Assembly: GCA_001002285.1 (NCBI GenBank)
Contig: LCLX01000001.1
Location: 258,302-314,894 of the forward strand
DNA length: 56,593 bases
Direction: 5' to 3'
From: Microgenomates group bacterium GW2011_GWC1_46_15
Lineage (GTDB): Bacteria; Patescibacteriota; Microgenomatia; UBA1400; UBA12028
In this document: piece by piece, positions 12,568 to 24,894 of the stretch
How the letters are laid out: each line of letters starts with the position of its first letter
Numbering within the stretch: position 1 is the stretch's first letter
Translations under genes and position numbers: made by a program
The notes under the pieces: generated by a model
The model's input: only the letters and a program-made list of their open reading frames with translations
Told to the model about the DNA's origin: nothing
The model's database searches: none

Positions 12568-13239
12568 ATGAACTCTGATGTGCAATATGTGTACCGCACG
12601 CATCCCCGCGCCCGTTCCGTAAGCATTAGTATCCGCGATGGTGCGGTGGTTATAACCTCGCCGCGATTTGTCCCCCGCATGTTTGTGCAGGCGTTTGTAA
12701 AACGGTCGGAGGCGTGGATTTCCCAGCATTTGGAAAAAGCGCGCGGTGCATTTGAAAAAAAACAGAGTATGCGAAAAAAAAATACAGTGCTATTTTTGGG
12801 AAACGAGTATCAAGTTACTGTTGATGAAACACGTCCCCGTGGTATTACGGTGGAAGAAACAACGCTGTATGTGCACCCCGTAAATCGCACAGAAACATCG
12901 GTACAACGTGCTATTGAACGGTGGTACAGCGCACAGGCAGAATCGCTGATTACACGATTAGCGCACGAGTTGGCAAAGCGCATGGATGTGTCATTTGAAA
13001 ACATCCGTTTCCGAACGCAAAAAACACGGTGGGGTAGTTGTTCAATACGCGGAACGTTGTCGTTTAACCGCAAGTTGATTGGTGCGCCACGTGAGGTGAT
13101 TGAGTACGTGATTATTCACGAGCTGACGCACATTACGCACATGAATCACGGAAAAACGTTTTGGGAAAGAGTTGCGATGTTTGATCCGCTCCACAAGACA
13201 CACAAAAAATGGTTGAGAACGCACGGAGTACTTTTGTAA
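12568..13239 (+). CDS. YgjP-like (DUF45/M48-family) zinc metallohydrolase
   Basis: RWGSCS...IEYVIIHELTHITHMNHGKTFW (HExxH plus downstream H). Start set at ATG 12568; the ORF-track start 12526 would overlap the divergent Nramp gene. Confidence 0.85.
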   Translation: MNSDVQYVYRTHPRARSVSISIRDGAVVITSPRFVPRMFVQAFVKRSEAWISQHLEKARGAFEKKQSMRKKNTVLFLGNEYQVTVDETRPRGITVEETTLYVHPVNRTETSVQRAIERWYSAQAESLITRLAHELAKRMDVSFENIRFRTQKTRWGSCSIRGTLSFNRKLIGAPREVIEYVIIHELTHITHMNHGKTFWERVAMFDPLHKTHKKWLRTHGVLL

Positions 13240-15244: not shown

Positions 15245-17329
15245 ATGGATGATATGAGACACGAACAACTTGGAACACGTCGTCCCACCACAAAAGAAAC
15301 AATGCTGGGACGCCGCATTAAAGCGATTCGAGAAATGGTCGAAATCCCTTTTGAAAAAGGAGTGGAACTTCGAGATCTTGAAGGAAAACTTGCGTGGTAT
15401 CAAACGCAACAAGATGCTCTTCATTTTTTTCAGCAAACACAGCGTAATCTAAATCGATTTCTTGCGACTCCGCGGCATACATTTGAACGTGCAAAACGAG
15501 GAATCGTGAAGCGTGTGACTCGAGCATTTACCCAGTACCAACGAACACATGCGGTCGTAGAGGAGCGTCGTGCGGAAGATGCTGCTAATCAGCAGGAAGA
15601 GCGTCGTGCGGCAGAGGAAACACGCATGGAAGCTCTTCTCCAAGAGTACCTCGGGTTGGATACAATGTATCGGAACGACCAGGATCTCACCATGGAAGAA
15701 GGAGCACGGTACAGTGATTTGATTGCGTACTTGAGTGTGAAGGAGACCCAAGCGCAGATTGTACAAACATACAATGAACTTTCCCGCGAATTTGCCGATG
15801 TGGCAACATCACTGGAAAGAAAAGCGAGACTTGCAACAGTTCTCGCTGTTTTTGTCGTTTTTCTCTTGGGAGCGTGTTCTGGACCAGGGTCTGTAACTCC
15901 TCCCCCCACACAAGAAGCTACAACAACGCAGGTTCAGCCTTCCGCCGAGAATCTTGATCCTACGGCGAGACAGGAGAATTCCACGCAAGTACCGGAAATC
16001 ACGCCACAGGTGGAACAAAACACGGCATCACTCCCATATACTCCAGAAGATGTATTTGCGCATCCTGAAGCGTATACTCCGGCAATCCGTATTGACGAAG
16101 CAACGCTCGTCGAAATTGCGGCGATTCCCCCCGACCAGCAACCAGACAATGCACTGATTGAGCAGTATGGATTATTGCCTGCAGGCGCACAGTTTTTCTT
16201 AGATCAGATTGCACGATTCCGCTACCTCGCCGGTGTCGCGCAAACCCAGGAAAAAGATGCGGAAGGCAATCCAAATCCAAAACCCGCAGTAACAATAAAA
16301 GATGTGTTCCTCGCCTGGAATGGCCAAGCTGGTGAAGCCAGCCGGGATGATCTCCTTGGCTTTACCGATGATGGTAAACTTGTGATCCTCACCACAACAG
16401 GACTCGTAAATGGTGCGCAGGAAACATACATGTCCGGCTCCGCATTTAACTATTGGCAGGTAAAGGGGCAAGAGTTTAATCAATACGATTGGGCATATGT
16501 TCCCATTGATGTCCCAACAGGTGATGGTGAAGTGACAGTGTATTGGAATGCGAATGGAACAGGGTATATTGTAAATACTGATCCGCAAAGTGGAAGTGTG
16601 CATGAGGTGCTTGACGTGAAAAATTCGGCAGACTTACTTTGGGTAGGAAAGCCGGAGTCTCCTCAAGATTTGAGCACACGCATTGCGATTGAAGCAAATT
16701 TTGATCCCGCCTACGGTACGTTTACACTAGGAACAGACGATCGTTATCCTGGCCAACAAGTGATGTTTCGCGATGGCAATTTGGTAGCGGTAAAAACAGA
16801 TTCAGGGTGGGAGAAAGTATACATTGGACCGTATGCGGATATTGGTGAGGGTTCTTCTTATAGGTGGGCGCGAGGTGCCGATTACCCGCATTTCTTCCCG
16901 GGTTTTTCGATCTATGCCGCAAATATTTCTCCTGTAACATTGGTAGATGTTGAAAATACGCCTGATCGATATGGTCTAAAAGTGCTTGTGTTTGGGTTTA
17001 CTGTGAACGGGAGAAACTTCTTATGGAGAGTTTCTTATAATCCGTGCAACCAAGGAAAAACAATTAGCTTCCACTCCGAAAGTTCCCCGTGGGTTATCGG
17101 AAAGGACTACCATGTCGGCCCGACAGTTATTTATGAGATTGCTGACCGTTCCAAGGTGGAAGAAGAATTTTCGGTTGATGGTCTAGGTTGTAGCCAGTTC
17201 AAGGAGATTGAGACGGCTACCGTAGAAGAAGTAAAAACATTTTTTAAAGGTCAAGATATTCAATCTGAAGGTCAACTAAGAAACTTTGGCAACGGTGTAA
17301 TTCTTACTATTGTTTTCGCACCTAACTAA
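15245..17329 (+). CDS. large single-pass membrane protein: cytoplasmic coiled-coil head, P/T/Q linker, ~450-aa ectodomain ending in a two-Cys domain
   Basis: ATG 15245 sits after AGAGGT; the ORF track starts at TTG 15215. TM helix LATVLAVFVVFLLGACSG has a lipobox-like LLGAC but lies about 190 aa from the N-terminus. No enzymatic motifs recognised. Confidence 0.7.
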   Translation: MDDMRHEQLGTRRPTTKETMLGRRIKAIREMVEIPFEKGVELRDLEGKLAWYQTQQDALHFFQQTQRNLNRFLATPRHTFERAKRGIVKRVTRAFTQYQRTHAVVEERRAEDAANQQEERRAAEETRMEALLQEYLGLDTMYRNDQDLTMEEGARYSDLIAYLSVKETQAQIVQTYNELSREFADVATSLERKARLATVLAVFVVFLLGACSGPGSVTPPPTQEATTTQVQPSAENLDPTARQENSTQVPEITPQVEQNTASLPYTPEDVFAHPEAYTPAIRIDEATLVEIAAIPPDQQPDNALIEQYGLLPAGAQFFLDQIARFRYLAGVAQTQEKDAEGNPNPKPAVTIKDVFLAWNGQAGEASRDDLLGFTDDGKLVILTTTGLVNGAQETYMSGSAFNYWQVKGQEFNQYDWAYVPIDVPTGDGEVTVYWNANGTGYIVNTDPQSGSVHEVLDVKNSADLLWVGKPESPQDLSTRIAIEANFDPAYGTFTLGTDDRYPGQQVMFRDGNLVAVKTDSGWEKVYIGPYADIGEGSSYRWARGADYPHFFPGFSIYAANISPVTLVDVENTPDRYGLKVLVFGFTVNGRNFLWRVSYNPCNQGKTISFHSESSPWVIGKDYHVGPTVIYEIADRSKVEEEFSVDGLGCSQFKEIETATVEEVKTFFKGQDIQSEGQLRNFGNGVILTIVFAPN

Positions 17330-17412
17330 TTTCCTCCATATTATGCTCCATAAAAACATTGATTTTGCTCCGAAAAGATGATTCACTTGGTCTACTGCGG
17401 AGTAAGTCATTA

Positions 17413-18066
17413 ATGAAAAAAATAATTATGTCTTCAGCGATAATAATAGCCGTTTTAGTTGCGATGATTATTTGGCAAACCGGTATTCCTGTTTTCTTGG
17501 TCTGGAAAAATTTGGAAATATTCAAAGTTTCAGATCGCTATAAAGCATTAATTAATAGACCGTCTTTAAGATTTGCCAGTAGAGAAGTGGTTGTCGATGT
17601 GGACGGAATAAAACTTTACAATAAAACTCTAATAGAAACAGTTTTATTATTTTCACGACCTCATAAATTTTTAAGTTCTGGAACTTCTTTAGATTTATTA
17701 TTTGGATTTGAGGCAAAAGATCATGCTGGGAAAATTCAGAAGTATGCATTTTGGGTTTCCCATTCGAGGTGTACAAACATAAACAGCATTGCCCTTTACC
17801 CCCGATTACCAAATAAGATTAAATCTTTAAATCTATATAACCTCGGTCTTGTAATGAATAGTTTTTCTTCAGATCTTTCAAAATTAAATTTTCTCCCCAA
17901 GGAAGGTACTTCTTGCAATCTTTACAAACAATTGCAACCAGTTATTTTAGAAGAAATTGAAAATTATTTTCAAGGAAAGGACGAGTCCAAAAAACTGAAG
18001 ATTATCGATTTGCGTAATAAGATACTAGTAGAAACTATGTATGAAGGCGGTGATCTCCAAAGATGA
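17413..18066 (+). CDS. membrane-anchored protein paralogous to the C-terminal domain of the preceding gene
   Basis: MKKIIMSSAIIIAVLVAMIIW anchor. LDLLFGFEA...FWVSHSRC...GTSCNLYKQL...LEEIENYFQGKD aligns with LKVLVFGFTV...LWRVSYNPC...GLGCSQFKEI...VEEVKTFFKGQD of 15245..17329. Very AT-rich DNA. Confidence 0.6.
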   Translation: MKKIIMSSAIIIAVLVAMIIWQTGIPVFLVWKNLEIFKVSDRYKALINRPSLRFASREVVVDVDGIKLYNKTLIETVLLFSRPHKFLSSGTSLDLLFGFEAKDHAGKIQKYAFWVSHSRCTNINSIALYPRLPNKIKSLNLYNLGLVMNSFSSDLSKLNFLPKEGTSCNLYKQLQPVILEEIENYFQGKDESKKLKIIDLRNKILVETMYEGGDLQR

Positions 18067-19904
18067 GATTAATAAAAATTTTCTACTTAATTATATTCAT
18101 CCTGTTGCTATATTTGTTTTCTTATAAAAAAGAAGTATTCGCTGGTTGGTCGTGTGCCAGTTCCGTACGTATCGATTATTTCTACTGTGATGGATCAAAA
18201 GACATTACGGGGGCCTGTTATCCTCCAACGTATCTATGGGAATCAGTGTTTGGATGTGACACTTCCGATCCAAGTTGTCCAACAATACTAGATATATGCA
18301 GTTCTAATGATTCTTGCTCCGGAAGTAGTTGTACGACCTGTTCAGAGTCTCCTTCCAATTGTTGGGTACAAACCTGTGACCCTGTCTGCAACTCTCCCCT
18401 CTGTGGCCAACCCGATGGATGTGGCAGCTCGTGTTCCAACGCCTCTGCCGGAACTGGCTGGACAGATACCGGTAATCGTACCTGTGGTGGAGGATGTGGC
18501 AATCAGAGCTGCTCAAAGGAACAGATAGACACATGTGGCAACTATCAATGGGTTGCCGACGGTTCAACATGCAACGAATGTTTGAATATAGGTGCATGGG
18601 GAGCGTGTTCCTCGGCTACGTTCCAACGCACCCGCACATGTTCGGACTCCTGTGGAGGATGTGGTGGGGTGAGTCAGGCAGAGAACTGTCTTGGCACTAT
18701 CTCCGGCACGTACTTTGACGCGACGGACTTCACGTGTCCGCAAATGGCCCTTGCCCCCAAGGTAAGCGGTGGCACTACGCAAATGGACTCCACACTCTAC
18801 GCTCCGCCTATCACGTATACGGCAACCACGAACTCGAATGGCGTGTACACGCAGTCGGTTCGCAGTCCAGAAACATATGCGCTTTCCGAAACCGTCCCCG
18901 CAGGAACAGGCTTTCTTGCGATACCTCGCTACATCTGTACCAGCAACATCGTGAGCTTTACCGGCCAGGGAGAAGCGGCTACTCGTGACTATGGATGGTG
19001 GAAGTCGGTGCCTGCCTGGTTCCAACTCATGGGCGGGAATATGGGCGCAGAAGCGAGTAGTGGGGTCGCCATCCAAACATACGTCCCGTCTTCCTGTGTC
19101 GGCTCCCCCTGTGCCCCCCGTGCCATCTTGGCCAAAGATACGGCGGGTACGACCGGTTCCTCAGGATGGGTGGCGGTTGGCCCCAGTGCCTCCATTGTAA
19201 CCACGACCGGCGCTTCCACGCTTGCCAATCTTAATGAAGAAGGCACGAACGTGTACGCGCAGTCTGCCCGTGCCGCCCGGCGTGAAAACTACGGGGAGTT
19301 CTACCGCCGCTTCTCGTTGGGCTTCGATCCAAGCACGCTCTCCAACACCCCGCTGGGCGGGGTTGGCGGTATCACGTTGGGCAACCTCGCTAAACCCGAT
19401 CCCATCGGCAGTCCGCCCGCCCGTGGGGCCTACTACGCCCCCGGCGACACCACGATTGCCAGTGCCTGGAGTGTGGCAAGCACCGAGAAGATCGTCATCT
19501 TTGTCAACGGCAACCTCACCATTGCGGCTCCCATCACCGTGGCCCAAGGTGGCTTTCTCGCGTTTATCACCACCAGCAACATCACGATTGACTCCAGTGT
19601 TGGTACCAGCGATACCACCTCGACCACTCCCCAGGTGGAAGGCGTATACATTGCCAATGGGACGTTCACGGTGGCAAGCAAGGGCGTCAAACAGGGAGAT
19701 CTCAAGTTTGTGGGGGCTGGCACGTTTGTGGGCTGGACCGGCGTGTCCTTGAACCGTGACTTCCGGTTGGGTGATGACACCACCGAAGGACTCAAAAACT
19801 TTGATGAGCCGGGCGAACTCTTTCTCGCCCGCCCCGACTTTGTTGTGAACCTGCCACGGAAGATGGCCCGCCCAGTCATCGACTGGCAGGAAGTGGCGCC
19901 GTAG
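18063..19904 (+). CDS. secreted cysteine-rich protein with Cna-B-like segment and long G/T/S/A-rich C-terminal region (putative adhesin)
   Basis: Signal peptide MRLIKIFYLIIFILLLYLFSYKKEVFA. I count 26 Cys in about 190 aa. ISGTYFDA...TATTNSNGVYTQSVRSPETYAL resembles SdrD-B/Cna-B repeats. ATGA overlap with the upstream gene. GC-rich DNA that generates many spurious overlapping ORFs. Confidence 0.75.
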   Translation: MRLIKIFYLIIFILLLYLFSYKKEVFAGWSCASSVRIDYFYCDGSKDITGACYPPTYLWESVFGCDTSDPSCPTILDICSSNDSCSGSSCTTCSESPSNCWVQTCDPVCNSPLCGQPDGCGSSCSNASAGTGWTDTGNRTCGGGCGNQSCSKEQIDTCGNYQWVADGSTCNECLNIGAWGACSSATFQRTRTCSDSCGGCGGVSQAENCLGTISGTYFDATDFTCPQMALAPKVSGGTTQMDSTLYAPPITYTATTNSNGVYTQSVRSPETYALSETVPAGTGFLAIPRYICTSNIVSFTGQGEAATRDYGWWKSVPAWFQLMGGNMGAEASSGVAIQTYVPSSCVGSPCAPRAILAKDTAGTTGSSGWVAVGPSASIVTTTGASTLANLNEEGTNVYAQSARAARRENYGEFYRRFSLGFDPSTLSNTPLGGVGGITLGNLAKPDPIGSPPARGAYYAPGDTTIASAWSVASTEKIVIFVNGNLTIAAPITVAQGGFLAFITTSNITIDSSVGTSDTTSTTPQVEGVYIANGTFTVASKGVKQGDLKFVGAGTFVGWTGVSLNRDFRLGDDTTEGLKNFDEPGELFLARPDFVVNLPRKMARPVIDWQEVAP

Positions 19905-20096
19905 CGTTTCTCAAGCATACGAGCTTTTCTGTATATATCAACGTATTTTTCTTCTTTACAACACCACCGCACTTTGCTTAAATGAGGCTCTCTCCGTTTG
20001 CCGCACGTTTGCGATTTTCCGCAGGCCAAGCGCCCACTTCAGCAAACACATTTCTTATTCATCACTATTGCCCACCAATGGGCGAAAGGAGTGTGT

Positions 20097-20675
20097 ATGC
20101 ACCAACAAAGTACTATCCCATCCTCTCAAGGATTTACAGAAAAACAATTGGAACAACTGGAACATTTTTATAACAAAGCATTCGACGCGAAATTTCCGGC
20201 GGCTTTCGAAAAAGCGTTTACACCTGCCTTTGATAAAGCATTTACCCCCGCCTTCGACAAAGCCACCCACACGCCCGAGTTTGGAAAACGAATATATACC
20301 ATCGTGAGCGACGCTATTGTTGACGCAATGGATTCAGTATATTTGCCGGGAATTCAACGGATGATCAACGAATCATCTGAAAAAATCTGTGCACGGATAC
20401 ACACCATGGATGAAAGAATGGGCATATTGGTAAGACGTATCGAAGGAGTTGAGCACATTATGGACAATCATGAAAAAAGACTTGAAGGCGTAGAGCGTAC
20501 GCTTAAAAGTGTTGATGATAGATTAGACTACTTAACCGTTCGTGTGAATGAAATCCAAGAAGTTCTTCCTAAAAAGGAAAAATTTGCATGGAAAATCCCG
20601 TCAGCATTTCAGGTAGCCGAGCGTCGATGGGGATACAACACTTCTCTGGATGAAGAAAAGAAGGAAATGAAATGA
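20097..20675 (+). CDS. coiled-coil protein, paralogue of 30460..30870
   Basis: ATG 20097 lies 5 nt after AAAGGAG. N-terminal TEKQLEQL...NKAF, AFTPAFDK repeats, TPEF motif, then coiled coil (VEHIMDNHEKRLEGVERTLKSVDDRLDYL). Confidence 0.6.
   Translation: MHQQSTIPSSQGFTEKQLEQLEHFYNKAFDAKFPAAFEKAFTPAFDKAFTPAFDKATHTPEFGKRIYTIVSDAIVDAMDSVYLPGIQRMINESSEKICARIHTMDERMGILVRRIEGVEHIMDNHEKRLEGVERTLKSVDDRLDYLTVRVNEIQEVLPKKEKFAWKIPSAFQVAERRWGYNTSLDEEKKEMK
20214..20261 (+). repeat. in-frame 24-nt tandem duplication (AFTPAFDK x2)
   Basis: gcgtttacacctgcctttgataaa / gcatttacccccgccttcgacaaa. Confidence 0.6.
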
Positions 20676-20721
20676 TTTGTGTTTCAGTAAAGAAAAGATT
20701 ATACCTAAGGAGGTAAAATGT

Positions 20722-21561
20722 ATGGAAGAAACAATGAAACTCGCAATTTTCCAAGGCAAGGGAATCCGGAAAACACTGCACAATAATGAGTGGTGGTTTT
20801 CGGTGGTGGATGTTATTGAGGCTTTGACGGATAGCAGTAAGCCAAGAGTGTATTGGAATGCAATGAAAACTAGAGTTAAAGCGAGTGATGGAATTGAGTT
20901 GTCTACAATTTGTAGACAACTAAAATTATCAGCATCAGATGGAAAGCTATATGAAACCGACTGTGCAAACACCGAAAGTGTTTTTCGTATTATTCAATCC
21001 ATCCCCTCCCCCAAAGCAGAACCGTTTAAACGCTGGTTGGCAAAGGTGGGCTATGAACGCGTACAGGAAATTGAAGATCCGGAACTTGCTACCAAGCGAA
21101 CCCGCGCACTGTATAAAGCAAAAGGATACACCGATGACTGGATAGAAAAACGGATACGCGGGATTGCCATCCGCGGAGAGCTTACGGAAGAATGGAAGAA
21201 AAGAAACGTGGGAGCGGAAAAAGAGTATGCCATTCTCACCTCAGAAATCTCGAAAGCAACATTTGGCATGACACCAAGCCAGTATAAAAAGTTTAAAGGA
21301 CTACGCAGGGAAAACCTACGTGACCATATGGATGATTTAGAGCTGATTTTCTCTATGTTGGGAGAAGCATCAACTACAGCAATTGCAAAAGGTAAAGATG
21401 CTCAAGGATTTGAGCAAAATCAGACTGCGGCACACCAAGGAGGATCAATTGCTGGTCATGCAAGAAAAGAACTTGAGGTAAAAAGTGGGAAAAAAGTATC
21501 AACGAAAAAAAACTATCTTTTTACACCGCAAAGCCAACAAAAAAAACTAGCAGGAAAATGA
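20722..21561 (+). CDS. Bro-N domain protein (phage antirepressor/DinD-like family)
   Basis: IRKTLHNNEWWFSVVDVIEALTDS...PRVYW...IQSIPSPKAEPFKRWLAKVGYERVQEIEDPE is the Bro-N pattern. AAGGAGGT lies 8 nt upstream of ATG 20722. Confidence 0.8.
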   Translation: MEETMKLAIFQGKGIRKTLHNNEWWFSVVDVIEALTDSSKPRVYWNAMKTRVKASDGIELSTICRQLKLSASDGKLYETDCANTESVFRIIQSIPSPKAEPFKRWLAKVGYERVQEIEDPELATKRTRALYKAKGYTDDWIEKRIRGIAIRGELTEEWKKRNVGAEKEYAILTSEISKATFGMTPSQYKKFKGLRRENLRDHMDDLELIFSMLGEASTTAIAKGKDAQGFEQNQTAAHQGGSIAGHARKELEVKSGKKVSTKKNYLFTPQSQQKKLAGK

Positions 21562-24147: not shown

Positions 24148-24894
24148 ATGAAATACAAAGCACTTTTGCTTGATCTTGACGGGACAACCGTTCCCATGGG
24201 GTTTGGTCAACACACGCCAACAAAAGCGGTAAAAAATGCGATTATTGGTCTCCGTGGCAAAGTCCACGTATGTATTGCGACGGGGCGCGCGATGGATGGC
24301 ACACTTCCCGTTCTTCAATCGTTAGGTATTTCTGATCCGTGTATTTTGTGTGGCGGGGCTGTGATCTACAATCCAGCACAAGCTAAAACGATTGAAAAAT
24401 TTACGATCCCGGATAAACATCTCGAAAAGATTTTCAGTATTCTTGGGAAAAAATTGAACAAGGCATATGTCCAAACGCAGGAACAGGAAGTCCGGTATGA
24501 TTCAACGCACCAGTATCACGATGTTACAAATATTTTTATCCAGGATATGTTTGAAAAGATTCAACACACCTACCTCACACCGCTGCGGAAAATCCGCGGC
24601 CTTTCACTTCAGGTGATGACAAAAACATTCAACGGGAATCCTGTTCTACAAATCTCCCATCATTCCGCGACAAAACAGCAGGCAATCAATCACCTCATCA
24701 CTTGGCTAAAAGTAAAGCCTGATCAAATTGTCGCGGTTGGCGACGGTGAAAACGACCTTCCAATGATTATTGCCGCTGGTATGGGTGTTGCGATGGGAAA
24801 TGCTGCCGATGGTCTCAAGTCCGTTGCCGACTACATTGCTCCTTCGGTTGATGAGGATGGCGTCGCGCACGTCATTGAAAAGTTTTTCTCTTGA
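24148..24894 (+). CDS. Cof-type HAD-IIB phosphatase
   Basis: LLLDLDGTTV (motif I) and AVGDGENDLPMIIAAGMGVAMGNA (motif IV). Confidence 0.9.
   Translation: MKYKALLLDLDGTTVPMGFGQHTPTKAVKNAIIGLRGKVHVCIATGRAMDGTLPVLQSLGISDPCILCGGAVIYNPAQAKTIEKFTIPDKHLEKIFSILGKKLNKAYVQTQEQEVRYDSTHQYHDVTNIFIQDMFEKIQHTYLTPLRKIRGLSLQVMTKTFNGNPVLQISHHSATKQQAINHLITWLKVKPDQIVAVGDGENDLPMIIAAGMGVAMGNAADGLKSVADYIAPSVDEDGVAHVIEKFFS

What the first reader, a model, noticed from the sequence alone, without database searches (positions are those of the whole stretch)
15245..19904. Compositionally mosaic three-gene surface-protein cassette (candidate host-attachment locus)
Three consecutive same-strand genes encode only envelope-exposed proteins, and I recognise no enzymatic motif in any of them. 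Gene 1 (15245..17329) has a ~190-aa cytoplasmic coiled-coil head, one TM helix ending in a lipobox-like LLGAC, a P/T/Q-rich linker and a ~450-aa ectodomain. Gene 2 (17413..18066) is a TM-anchored protein of 217 aa. Gene 3 (18063..19904) has a signal peptide, 26 Cys in about 190 aa, a Cna-B-like stretch and a long G/T/S/A-rich C-terminal region. Base composition jumps abruptly. My hand counts of single 60-nt lines give 15/60 and 14/60 G+C at 17401 and 17641, and 35/60 and 42/60 at 18841 and 19381. Housekeeping lines at 24181 and 40501 give 31/60 and 27/60. The low-to-high GC switch falls inside gene 3, between its AT-rich signal peptide (18063 to about 18150) and its GC-rich mature part. Genes 2 and 3 overlap by ATGA. 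The cassette lies between housekeeping genes (holA/GNAT and the sugar-phosphate block) and is followed by a coiled-coil gene and a Bro-N phage-type gene. This looks like a horizontally assembled or recombining adhesin locus. In an episymbiotic small-genome bacterium that would be the prime candidate for host-cell attachment.
Basis: partly seen in the sequence, partly recalled or inferred. Interest (0 to 1): 0.7.

Follow-up and report, generated by a model that had tools for sequence, protein, structure and literature searches.

The report
Conserved CPR surface-protein operon, pilus-linked
Three neighbouring genes of an ultrasmall (CPR/Pacebacteria-type) bacterium encode envelope proteins that form an uncharacterised operon; many relatives keep the same layout, often inside their type IV pilus gene clusters, which makes it a good candidate for cell-to-cell attachment.

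Summary
There are three same-strand ORFs (15245-17329, 17413-18066, 18063-19904) with an ATGA overlap, TM and signal segments, and 26 Cys in about 180 aa. The composition mosaic is real. After correcting for amino-acid content, gene 2 has a GC3 z of -5.7 and the gene-3 C-terminal part +8.7.

The cassette was not assembled horizontally. The layout [large head+TM/lipobox protein][~200-aa TM protein][gene-3 family] recurs in 30 of 48 relatives. In at least 10 loci it is operonic with a prepilin gene next to PilD, PilC and the pilus ATPase.

Gene 3 belongs to a family of about 3,600 clusters. The family shares a CnaB-like sandwich and a new C-terminal beta-rich module with no solved-structure relative. 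Its variable N-terminal parts carry TSP1, discoidin, Big_2 and fn3 domains.

Against the one sister genome, the centre of the locus is non-homologous (gene-1 C-terminus, gene 2, gene-3 N-terminus). Gene 2's position there is occupied by a domain fused to gene 3.

The GC-rich half is a C3-only bias. Both genomes have kept it through heavy synonymous turnover, so it is not a transfer relic. Its cause is unexplained.

Best reading: a pilus-associated adhesin complex. No enzymatic or toxin domain was found.

The parts
15245..17329 (+). Gene 1 (694 aa; alternative starts 15215 and 15254). A large membrane protein made of a head, a TM with lipobox-like Cys, a linker and an ectodomain.
   Evidence: ORF. 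The only homologue is the sister orthologue, 60% identical over aa 7-471. No Pfam, NCBIfam, PHROG, PADLOC or PDB match. Partners in the same position in other CPR loci share the architecture.
15245..15829 (+). Gene 1 N-terminal head (aa 1-195). Charged, inferred to be helical and cytoplasmic.
   Evidence: 63-83% identical to the sister. dN/dS about 0.25, so it is coding and constrained. Coiled-coil character not tested.
15830..15886 (+). Gene 1 TM helix (aa 196-214) ending in the lipobox-like FLLGAC, with Cys211.
   Evidence: Hydropathy scan. Cys211 is invariant against the sister. At least 8-11 positional partners have a TM ending in [AS/G]C followed by a P/T-rich linker.
15887..16657 (+). 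Gene 1 P/T/Q-rich linker and the conserved part of the ectodomain (aa 215-471).
   Evidence: Identity to the sister falls gradually from 70% to 30%. pS is 0.73 for aa 216-330.
16658..17326 (+). Gene 1 variable C-terminal region (aa 472-694). Its last ~115 aa (16982-17317) are paralogous to the gene-2 ectodomain.
   Evidence: No similarity to the sister C-terminus. Local alignment to gene 2 gives z 11, 0 of 1000 shuffles reach the score, and both Cys align.
17413..18066 (+). Gene 2 (217 aa). N-terminal TM anchor (aa 4-22) and a ~195-aa ectodomain. An ORFan.
   Evidence: ORF. Only self-hits among 5.8 billion proteins. GC3 0.267, z -5.7. In other loci the same position holds small TM proteins that abut the family gene with gaps of -10 to +9 nt.
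18063..19904 (+). Gene 3 (613 aa). A secreted multidomain protein belonging to a large family defined by its C-terminal module.
   Evidence: 15 homologues. A profile search finds 3,569 representatives. 71 loci in reference genomes, mostly Patescibacteria plus some Chloroflexota.
18063..18143 (+). Gene 3 signal-peptide-like segment (aa 1-27), ending ...KKEVFA|GWSC.
   Evidence: Hydropathy. The [VA]-[YF]-A junction before the first Cys is conserved in both short and long family forms. Cleavage is inferred, not tested.
18144..18689 (+). Gene 3 Cys-rich region (aa 28-209, 26 Cys).
   Evidence: Cys positions. Not modelled by AF2, pLDDT below 50. No TSP_1 hit in the window protein, although relatives have genuine TSP_1 repeats here. 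Only 33-53% identical to the sister from aa 92.
18690..19052 (+). Gene 3 CnaB/transthyretin-like beta-sandwich (aa 210-330).
   Evidence: AF2 pLDDT 65-83. Foldseek against PDB: Lig v 1 at 6e-4, TIE, SpaA, CnaB2 and SdrD.
19053..19901 (+). Gene 3 family-defining C-terminal module (aa 331-613), a beta-rich and possibly beta-solenoid core that ends in WQEVAP.
   Evidence: Conserved in all family members and always at the C-terminus. AF2 core pLDDT above 90, pTM 0.73. No PDB relative by sequence or by fold. Sub-threshold DUF7305 hit at 22.8 bits against a cut-off of 27. C3 is 0.47 against 0.22 expected.
16141..18680 (+). Segment with no DNA-level match to the syntenic sister genome: the hypervariable core of the locus.
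   Evidence: blastn of the window against L001. Flanks are 86-90% identical; the gene-3 3' part is 78.6% identical. L083 and L084 are the same allele as the sister.

Best explanation
The three genes are one copy of a conserved, uncharacterised operon of CPR/Patescibacteria that builds a cell-surface binding complex functionally tied to type IV pili.

Gene 3 would be exported by a Sec-type signal peptide. It would consist of a disulfide-rich variable N-terminal part, a CnaB-like stalk domain and a conserved C-terminal module. I infer that the module is the docking element, holding the protein on the pilus (minor-pilin tip or priming complex) or on its membrane partners. I infer that the variable N-terminal modules do the binding.

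Gene 1 (head, TM with lipobox-like Cys, P/T linker, ectodomain) and gene 2 (bitopic, ~200 aa) would be its membrane-anchored partners.

In this lineage the parts inferred to face outward or contact each other have been exchanged for unrelated sequence relative to the sister species. These are the gene-1 C-terminus, gene 2 and the gene-3 N-terminus. That pattern is expected of a surface locus under diversifying selection, whether from host specificity or phage pressure.

Shown here: gene order, topology signals, folds, family size, domain repertoire, pilus-locus linkage in relatives, the variable core and the composition anomaly.

Inferred: secretion and cleavage, docking through the C-module, pilus association in this genome, and adhesion to a host cell.
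For: 1. Conserved layout. Of 48 loci with enough upstream flank, 16 have [large][small TM][family] and 14 have [large][family]. Gaps to the family gene are -10 to +9 nt. Examples: L027 694/225/923 aa, L031 631/218/613 aa, against the window's 694/217/613 aa.

2. Pilus linkage. In Pacebacteria-type loci the operon continues into a second C-module paralogue and a prepilin gene. It converges on minor pilins, PilD (Peptidase_A24), the major pilin, PilC (T2SSF) and a T2SSE ATPase. There are 62 prepilin-motif ORFs downstream against 4 upstream of the family gene. L011 also shows PilM and N_methyl neighbours.

3. Adhesin-type content. The CnaB-like fold, and TSP_1, F5/8 type C (discoidin), Big_2 and fn3 domains in family members. 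No enzyme domain was found.

4. The conserved C-module is always C-terminal, behind variable N-terminal parts. It is under strong purifying selection, dN/dS 0.08.

5. Partner architecture. Heads of 90-270 aa followed by a TM ending in Cys and a P/T-rich linker recur in the positional partners.

6. Variable core against the sister, with graded divergence and raised pS (0.73) next to it.

7. Precedent. In Saccharibacteria, large pilus-locus proteins without PilD signals are proposed tip adhesins, and PilX2 is needed for efficient host binding (PMC11623550).
Against: - The window has no prepilin motif or pilus machinery anywhere in its 56.6 kb. The sister also has none next to the cassette. The pilus link rests on more distant relatives, 24-44% identical in the C-module.
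- Genes 1 and 2 have no detectable sequence homology to the positional partners. Their equivalence is architectural only.
- Only about a quarter of loci show nearby pilin genes.
- The C-module has no structural relative, so no docking mechanism can be read from it.
- No expression or localisation data were available.
- Signal peptide and TM calls come from a hydropathy heuristic, not a trained predictor.
Confidence: 0.5

Rival explanations
1. A surface complex anchored to the envelope and independent of pili. The conserved C-module would be a cell-wall, S-layer or membrane-partner anchoring domain, analogous in role to SLH, CWB or T9SS-CTD modules. It would hold a variable binding protein on the cell body. 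Proximity to pilus genes would reflect co-regulation of surface structures only.
For: The module is always at the extreme C-terminus and has a conserved terminal motif. Genes 1 and 2 are constant neighbours, while pilin genes are nearby in only about 26% of loci. The window and its sister lack adjacent pilins. Chloroflexota members show no pilin neighbours.
Against: Where pilins are present, the arrangement is fixed and same-strand: [family][paralogue][prepilin]. The downstream/upstream asymmetry is strong, 62 against 4. There is no similarity to any known wall-binding module.
Confidence: 0.25
2. One reading: a horizontally acquired or assembled mosaic island. Gene 2 and the 5' end of gene 3 would come from an AT-rich donor, and the 3' part of gene 3 from a GC-rich donor.
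For: The composition is strongly atypical: GC3 z -5.7 and +8.7, tetranucleotide r 0.07. Gene 2 is an ORFan. The variable core is unrelated to the sister. Partner genes are AT-shifted relative to their genomes in other mid-GC CPR genomes. This is compatible with alleles drawn from a mostly AT-rich CPR gene pool. Candidate mobile or defence genes lie downstream: Bro-N, which matches PDC-S13.
Against: The operon architecture is ancient and widespread, and it sits at the same position in the sister. The GC-rich part is orthologous in both genomes, with pS 0.60 similar to housekeeping genes, yet both keep C3 at 0.47-0.48. The excess is C3 only, with G3 unchanged. A weaker C3 excess occurs across the family. 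No donor above 44% identity was found. There are no tRNA genes or viral relatives. For the AT-rich core alone, allele replacement by recombination remains likely and is part of the best explanation.
Confidence: 0.12
3. A polymorphic toxin and immunity pair. Gene 1 would carry a variable C-terminal toxin domain delivered on contact, and gene 2 would be the cognate immunity protein.
For: Gene 1 has a conserved N-terminal two-thirds and a variable C-terminal ~220 aa, followed by a small, variable, low-GC ORFan. This is the usual layout of CT/immunity modules (established knowledge of Cdi, Rhs and LXG systems).
Against: No toxin, trafficking or immunity domain was found in Pfam, NCBIfam or PADLOC. 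Gene 2's ectodomain is a paralogue of the gene-1 C-terminal domain, which toxin-immunity pairs are not. Gene 2's position is fused to the gene-3 homologue in the sister and in many relatives. Divergence is graded rather than starting at a sharp motif. Gene 2-like proteins are all N-terminally anchored with external domains.
Confidence: 0.04
4. Phage-derived receptor-binding or tail-fibre-like genes, left by the neighbouring phage-type genes.
For: A Bro-N/phrog_15286 gene and a coiled-coil gene with weak XhlA-like hits lie immediately downstream.
Against: No PHROG hit for genes 1-3. No C-module relative in 2.9 million viral contigs. No useful BFVD fold match. The family sits in chromosomal pilus loci.
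Confidence: 0.02

Closest known systems
PilY1 / PilC, the non-pilin tip-associated adhesins of type IVa pili
   Same: A large secreted non-pilin protein with an ordinary (not prepilin) N-terminal signal. A conserved C-terminal domain sits behind a variable N-terminal binding part. The gene lies inside a pilin operon, as seen here in at least 10 relatives.
   Different: The C-terminal domain is not the PilY1 beta-propeller. There is no PF05567 hit, and the model is a small beta-rich, solenoid-like core with no PDB match. The N-terminal part is Cys-rich with a CnaB-like domain. It is accompanied by two membrane partners. The window copy is not next to pilin genes.
Saccharibacteria (TM7x) PilX1 / PilX2
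   Same: CPR proteins encoded in pilus loci that lack PilD signal peptides and carry large accessory binding domains. PilX2 is required for efficient host binding (PMC11623550).
   Different: They are described as having a pilin-like N-terminal helix plus jelly-roll or beta-propeller domains. No homology to gene 3 was shown here. The Saccharimonadales members of the gene-3 family (L075, L077, L079) had no pilin neighbours within the flanks.
CnaB-domain surface proteins of Gram-positive bacteria: sortase pilins such as SpaA and BcpA, MSCRAMM B-repeats such as SdrD, and TIE
   Same: The beta-sandwich of aa 210-330 matches them at fold level. The overall logic is an extracellular stalk plus a binding module.
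   Different: There is no LPXTG motif and no C-terminal TM or charged tail; the protein ends in WQEVAP. Isopeptide residues were not examined. Sequence identity is 12-18%.
Pfam DUF7305 (PF23981)
   Same: The core of the C-module (aa 454-551) aligns to profile positions 48-142. Several relatives give similar hits.
   Different: All scores are below the gathering cut-off (20-24 bits against 27). The Pfam family itself has no known function, and no paper mentions it.
Polymorphic toxin / immunity cassettes (CdiA-CT/CdiI, Rhs, LXG)
   Same: A conserved N-terminus, a variable C-terminus, and a variable low-GC small ORF.
   Different: No toxin or trafficking domains. The 'immunity' position is a paralogue of the 'toxin' domain, and it is fused to gene 3 in relatives.

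Membership tests
PilY1/PilC tip adhesins | C-terminal PilY1/Neisseria_PilC beta-propeller domain (PF05567) | tested here: not met
   No Pfam hit at E<=0.1. The AF2 C-module is not a propeller, and Foldseek against PDB finds no PilY1.
PilY1/PilC tip adhesins | Encoded within a minor-pilin operon | tested here: inconclusive
   Met in at least 10 related loci. Not met in the window or the sister.
PilY1/PilC tip adhesins | Located at the pilus tip, or required for pilus priming or adhesion | not testable with these tools
   Needs genetics or imaging.
Type IV pilins / pseudopilins | Class III signal (G|F/Y-T/S-L-x-E) with N-terminal methylation motif and hydrophobic helix | tested here: not met
   No motif in genes 1-3 or anywhere in the window. 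No N_methyl Pfam hit.
Sortase-anchored CnaB adhesins / pilins (MSCRAMM type) | C-terminal LPXTG-type sorting signal followed by a TM segment and charged tail | tested here: not met
   Gene 3 ends ...RPVIDWQEVAP with no TM after aa 27. The family consensus has the same ending.
Sortase-anchored CnaB adhesins / pilins (MSCRAMM type) | CnaB-type beta-sandwich domain | tested here: met
   Foldseek E 6e-4 to 1e-2, with TM-score normalised to the target of 0.57-0.62 for single-domain targets. Fold level only; no Pfam Cna_B hit.
Sortase-anchored CnaB adhesins / pilins (MSCRAMM type) | Intramolecular isopeptide bond triad | not tested
   Residue geometry in the model was not inspected.
Pfam DUF7305 | Score at or above the gathering threshold (27 bits) | tested here: not met
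   22.8 bits, E 9.4e-5. Relatives score 20-24 bits. P0002 carries a precomputed PF23981 hit, marked faint.
Thrombospondin type 1 repeat proteins (PF00090) | TSP_1 profile match in the Cys-rich region | tested here: not met
   Not found in window gene 3 at E<=0.1. Met in relatives P0013, P0036 and P0045.
Bacterial lipoproteins (gene 1) | Lipobox [LVI][ASTVI][GAS]C at the end of a hydrophobic segment | tested here: met
   ...FLLGAC, Cys211. The Cys is conserved in the sister and in at least 8 positional partners. That L-G-A-C fits the lipobox rests on my knowledge of the consensus.
Bacterial lipoproteins (gene 1) | Signal peptide at the N-terminus (lipobox within about the first 40 residues) | tested here: not met
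   The lipobox-like Cys follows a 195-aa head that is conserved and under purifying selection. The relative L010_504 does have it at the N-terminus.
Polymorphic toxin systems | Recognisable toxin C-terminal domain and N-terminal trafficking domain | tested here: not met
   No hits in Pfam, NCBIfam, PADLOC or PDB.
Polymorphic toxin systems | Variable C-terminus followed by a small variable immunity gene unrelated to the toxin | tested here: not met
   The layout is present, but gene 2 is paralogous to the gene-1 C-terminal domain.
Horizontally acquired genomic island | Atypical composition | tested here: met
Horizontally acquired genomic island | Absent from, or differently placed in, close relatives; flanked by tRNA, repeats or mobility genes | tested here: not met
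   Same position in the sister. No tRNA in the window. Only a Bro-N gene lies downstream.

The most novel reading that the evidence does not exclude
The C-module family is the CPR-wide functional counterpart of PilY1: a non-pilin protein that rides on or primes type IV pili. Its swappable N-terminal modules, together with the fast-evolving partners (gene-1 and gene-2 types), would set which host cell an episymbiont can grasp. Allele replacement at this locus, as seen between the window and its sister, would then be a host-range switch. The maintained C3-rich coding of the module would point to an additional, so far unknown, constraint at the nucleotide level.
Probability: 0.25. Interest if true: 0.8.

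Novelty: new variant of a known kind. Interest (0 to 1): 0.6.

Why it matters
How ultrasmall CPR/Patescibacteria recognise and hold on to host cells is largely unknown outside a few cultivated Saccharibacteria. This locus points to a very large unannotated protein family, about 3,600 clusters at 50% identity, with a structurally novel conserved module. It also points to a recurrent three-gene operon that in many lineages is wired into type IV pilus loci. That gives concrete candidates for the adhesin and specificity layer of CPR pili. It also gives a natural contrast, two species with swapped cores, that could be used to study host specificity. The family-specific C3 codon signature is a separate unexplained observation.

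Tried and rejected
- Family libraries: Pfam, NCBIfam, PHROGs and PADLOC gave nothing above threshold for genes 1-3.
- PDB by sequence: nothing for gene 1, gene 2, gene 3 or the C-module profile.
- Whole-chain Foldseek against viral structures: nothing meaningful.
- C-module Foldseek against PDB: only insignificant beta-solenoid hits, best E 0.23. ComZ at E 5.6 is not evidence.
- Homology of genes 1 and 2 to their positional partners: phmmer and clustering failed. An HMM of the long-form N-domain recognises the sister (3e-35) but not gene 2. I therefore claim positional and architectural equivalence only.
- Gene-1 C-terminus / gene-2 paralogy as a general rule: it holds only in the window and in L039/L048.
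- Expression-linked codon bias as the cause of the C3 excess: rejected, because adjacent major pilin genes lack it.
- Strain-level variation: the six near-identical contigs show none in the cassette.
- More alleles of this exact locus: two metagenome scans returned only the sister allele.
- Viral contigs: no C-module.
- Literature: no paper on DUF7305, TSP1 in CPR, or this family.
- Promoter and terminator scans: at chance level, so not used.
- One large alignment call failed and one Pfam call exceeded the size limit. Both were repeated in smaller form.

Full report
**1. The observation**

The three ORFs exist as described: 15245-17329, 17413-18066 and 18063-19904, all on the + strand. Genes 2 and 3 overlap by ATGA.

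A hydropathy scan gives one TM segment in gene 1 at aa 196-214, ending FLLGAC. It gives an N-terminal TM in gene 2 (aa 4-22) and an N-terminal hydrophobic segment in gene 3 ending VFA|G. Gene 3 has 26 Cys between aa 31 and 209. It is 42.5% Gly+Ala+Ser+Thr over aa 207-613, against 26.6% in background genes.

The only GC outliers in the 56.6 kb (|z|>2.8) are at 17.1-17.9 kb (low) and 18.5-19.4 kb (high).

I computed the expectation from each segment's amino-acid sequence and the synonymous codon usage of 35 other window genes. Gene 2 has GC3 0.267 against 0.449 expected (z -5.7). Gene 3 aa 331-613 has 0.714 against 0.465 expected (z +8.7). The background genes span -4.7 to +2.9. All 14 least typical tetranucleotide windows lie in 15.4-19.2 kb, and the gene-3 body correlates at r about 0.07 against a mean of 0.78.

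One correction is needed. The raw-GC jump just after the signal peptide comes from amino-acid content: GC2 is 0.60-0.75 from codon 31. The synonymous-site switch lies near codons 90-180.

**2. What the proteins are**

Genes 1 and 2 have no family, defence, phage or PDB match. Gene 1 has a single homologue, the orthologue in a syntenic sister genome labelled Candidatus Pacebacteria. Gene 2 has none among 5.8 billion proteins.

Gene 3 has relatives. A profile of them finds 3,569 representatives at 50% clustering, 1,216 of them at E<=1e-30. The conserved part is always at the C-terminal end of proteins 300-1,600 aa long.

The AF2 model leaves the Cys-rich region unmodelled. It is confident for aa 210-330 and 455-600.

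The C-terminal module was modelled alone (pTM 0.73, core pLDDT above 90). It has no significant solved relative by fold (best E 0.23) or by profile. Its only family signal is a sub-threshold DUF7305 hit.

Family members carry TSP_1 repeats, F5/8 type C (discoidin) domains, Big_2 and fn3, and no enzyme domain.

**3. The cassette is a conserved operon, not a chance assembly**

A scan of one genome per species returned 71 loci. Most are Patescibacteria (Pace-, Gottesman-, Woese-, Shapiro- and Woykebacteria, WWE3, Saccharimonadales), and some are Chloroflexota.

Among 48 loci with enough upstream sequence, 16 have [large protein][150-270-aa N-terminally anchored protein][family gene] and 14 have [large protein][family gene]. 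The small gene abuts or overlaps the family gene, with gaps of -10 to +9 nt.

The large partners have no Pfam domains and no detectable similarity to gene 1. Many nevertheless share its odd build: an N-terminal head of 90-270 aa, then a TM helix ending in a lipobox-like Cys, then a P/T/Q/S-rich linker.

Many family members are 'long forms'. These start with a TM anchor and a ~200-250-aa N-domain that ends in ...PQ[AV]YA just before the first Cys. Short forms such as gene 3 start with a signal peptide ending in the same [VA]-[YF]-A motif. The sister's gene-3 orthologue is such a long form, 813 aa. The window's gene 2 plus gene 3 therefore correspond to one fused gene in the sister and in many relatives.

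**4. Link to type IV pili**

In Pacebacteria-type and other loci the operon reads [gene-1-like][gene-2-like][family][second C-module paralogue of ~440 aa][prepilin ~186 aa]. It converges on minor pilins, prepilin peptidase, the major pilin, PilC and a T2SSE ATPase. L011 shows the same association, with PilM and N_methyl genes.

Across all loci there are 62 prepilin-motif ORFs downstream of the family gene and 4 upstream. Ten of 58 loci have a same-strand prepilin within 2.5 kb of the stop codon. Twelve of the 75 loci with an HMM-detected C-module ORF have two or three tandem C-module paralogues.

The window has no prepilin motif or pilus gene. For this copy the link is therefore by homology and conserved context only.

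There is published precedent. In Saccharibacteria, large pilus-locus proteins without PilD signals are proposed tip adhesins, and PilX2 is needed for efficient host binding (PMC11623550).

**5. Comparison with the sister genome**

The flanks are 86-90% identical at DNA level. Window 16141-18680 has no DNA match. The gene-3 3' part is 78.6% identical.

Protein identity in gene 1 falls gradually from about 80% to 50% to 30%, and reaches noise by aa 471. In gene 3 it rises from noise to 33-53% (aa 92-200) and to 66-100% from aa 210.

The gene-1 C-termini are unrelated. Gene 2 is unrelated to the sister's N-domain, which belongs to the canonical long-form N-domain family. Instead, gene 2's ectodomain is a paralogue of the last ~115 aa of gene 1 (z 11, 0 of 1000 shuffles, both Cys aligned).

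So the core of the locus has been replaced by different modules. The gene-1 head (dN/dS 0.25) and the gene-3 C-part (0.08) are under constraint. pS is raised next to the core: 0.73, against 0.40-0.60 elsewhere. That is compatible with old allele classes or with import from a divergent relative.

Only these two alleles could be found. Near-identical strains show no variation in the cassette.

**6. The composition mosaic**

The GC-rich half is a C3-only effect. C3 is 0.47 against 0.22 expected (z +10.4). G3 is 0.24 against 0.24 expected. A3 is 0.09 against 0.25 expected. The sister has the same values.

The two genomes differ at 60% of synonymous sites in this segment, as in housekeeping genes. 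The bias is therefore maintained. It is not a relic of a recent transfer.

A weaker C3 excess, corrected for amino-acid content, is seen in the C-module of 73% of 52 genomes (p 1e-4). It is absent from the adjacent major pilin genes, so it is not generic high-expression codon bias. I have no tested explanation for it (notebook).

The AT-rich half is also partly a family trait. Partner genes are AT-shifted at third positions relative to their genomes (large partner -0.063, p 0.007; small partner -0.047, p 0.05). The shift is strongest in mid-GC genomes such as L072. This fits fast-evolving or frequently exchanged alleles in a mostly AT-rich gene pool, but that is inference.

**7. Verdict**

The finding is real and more interesting than ordinary. 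Its headline reading needs changing. This is not a horizontally assembled cassette. It is one copy of an old, widespread, unannotated CPR operon with a hypervariable core, tied to type IV pilus loci in many relatives.

The most likely function is a pilus-associated (or, less likely, envelope-anchored) binding complex. It is not a member of PilY1/PilC, of the sortase-anchored adhesins, or of polymorphic toxins; defining features of each were tested and not met. Host attachment remains a reasoned inference.

Noticed in passing
window 20677-21561 (public gene call 20722-21561): The Bro-N protein downstream of the cassette is a full-length match to the PADLOC candidate defence family PDC-S13 (E 8.7e-121) and to phrog_15286 (E 8.7e-94). 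It is conserved at the same place in the sister.
   Followed up: partly
window 20097-20675, repeat at 20203-20263: The coiled-coil gene contains a 24-nt tandem repeat encoding AFEKAFTPAFDK-type units. The window has 2.5 copies. The sister protein has more units (226 aa against 192 aa). Contig L004 has a scaffold gap exactly there.
   Followed up: partly
window 19905-19946, against L001 9924-12239: The sister genome has an extra ~2.3 kb of low-GC sequence between gene 3 and the coiled-coil gene, on the minus strand: a DHH/DHHA2 gene, a 135-aa ORF and a NUDIX gene. This is a second indel at the same locus.
   Followed up: no
window 12600-12672: In the otherwise identical strain contig L004, all 10 differences over 12.2 kb cluster in 73 nt near the start of the YgjP-like gene. 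This looks like a small recombination or conversion patch.
   Followed up: no
window 15830-15886, and partners in L025, L027, L028, L031, L032, L035, L037, L042, L043 and L072: A lipobox-like Cys at the end of a TM helix, placed 90-270 residues from the N-terminus behind a conserved head. This is far from where lipoprotein signal peptides normally sit. Whether Lgt and LspA process such internal signals is unknown. In L010 the Lgt and LspA genes lie just downstream of the cassette.
   Followed up: partly
L021, L025, L028, L029, L031, L033, L035, L054, L061, L063, L064, L071: Two or three C-module paralogues in tandem. In the Pacebacteria loci the second is a short form made of a signal peptide, a CnaB-like domain and the C-module, with a different C-terminal ending (...HFYLREIQP).
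   Followed up: partly
proteins P0039 and P0045 (relatives): A discoidin / F5/8 type C domain is inserted inside the C-module, between the GNIT strand region and the EGVY strand region. This shows that the module tolerates a large loop insertion at that point.
   Followed up: no
L014-L016 (Aggregatilineales, Chloroflexota): At least three family copies lie on one 3.7-Mb contig of a non-CPR bacterium. Chloroflexota members are among the closest to the window's C-module (40-44% identity). Shared ancestry against transfer was not resolved.
   Followed up: no
window 1-56593: No tRNA gene and no Rfam family at gathering threshold in the whole 56.6-kb window.
   Followed up: yes
window 18218-20029, minus strand and other frames: Several long ORFs (94-198 aa) overlap gene 3 on the opposite strand or in other frames. 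They are most simply by-products of the stop-poor C-rich sequence. No evidence that they are genes was sought.
   Followed up: no
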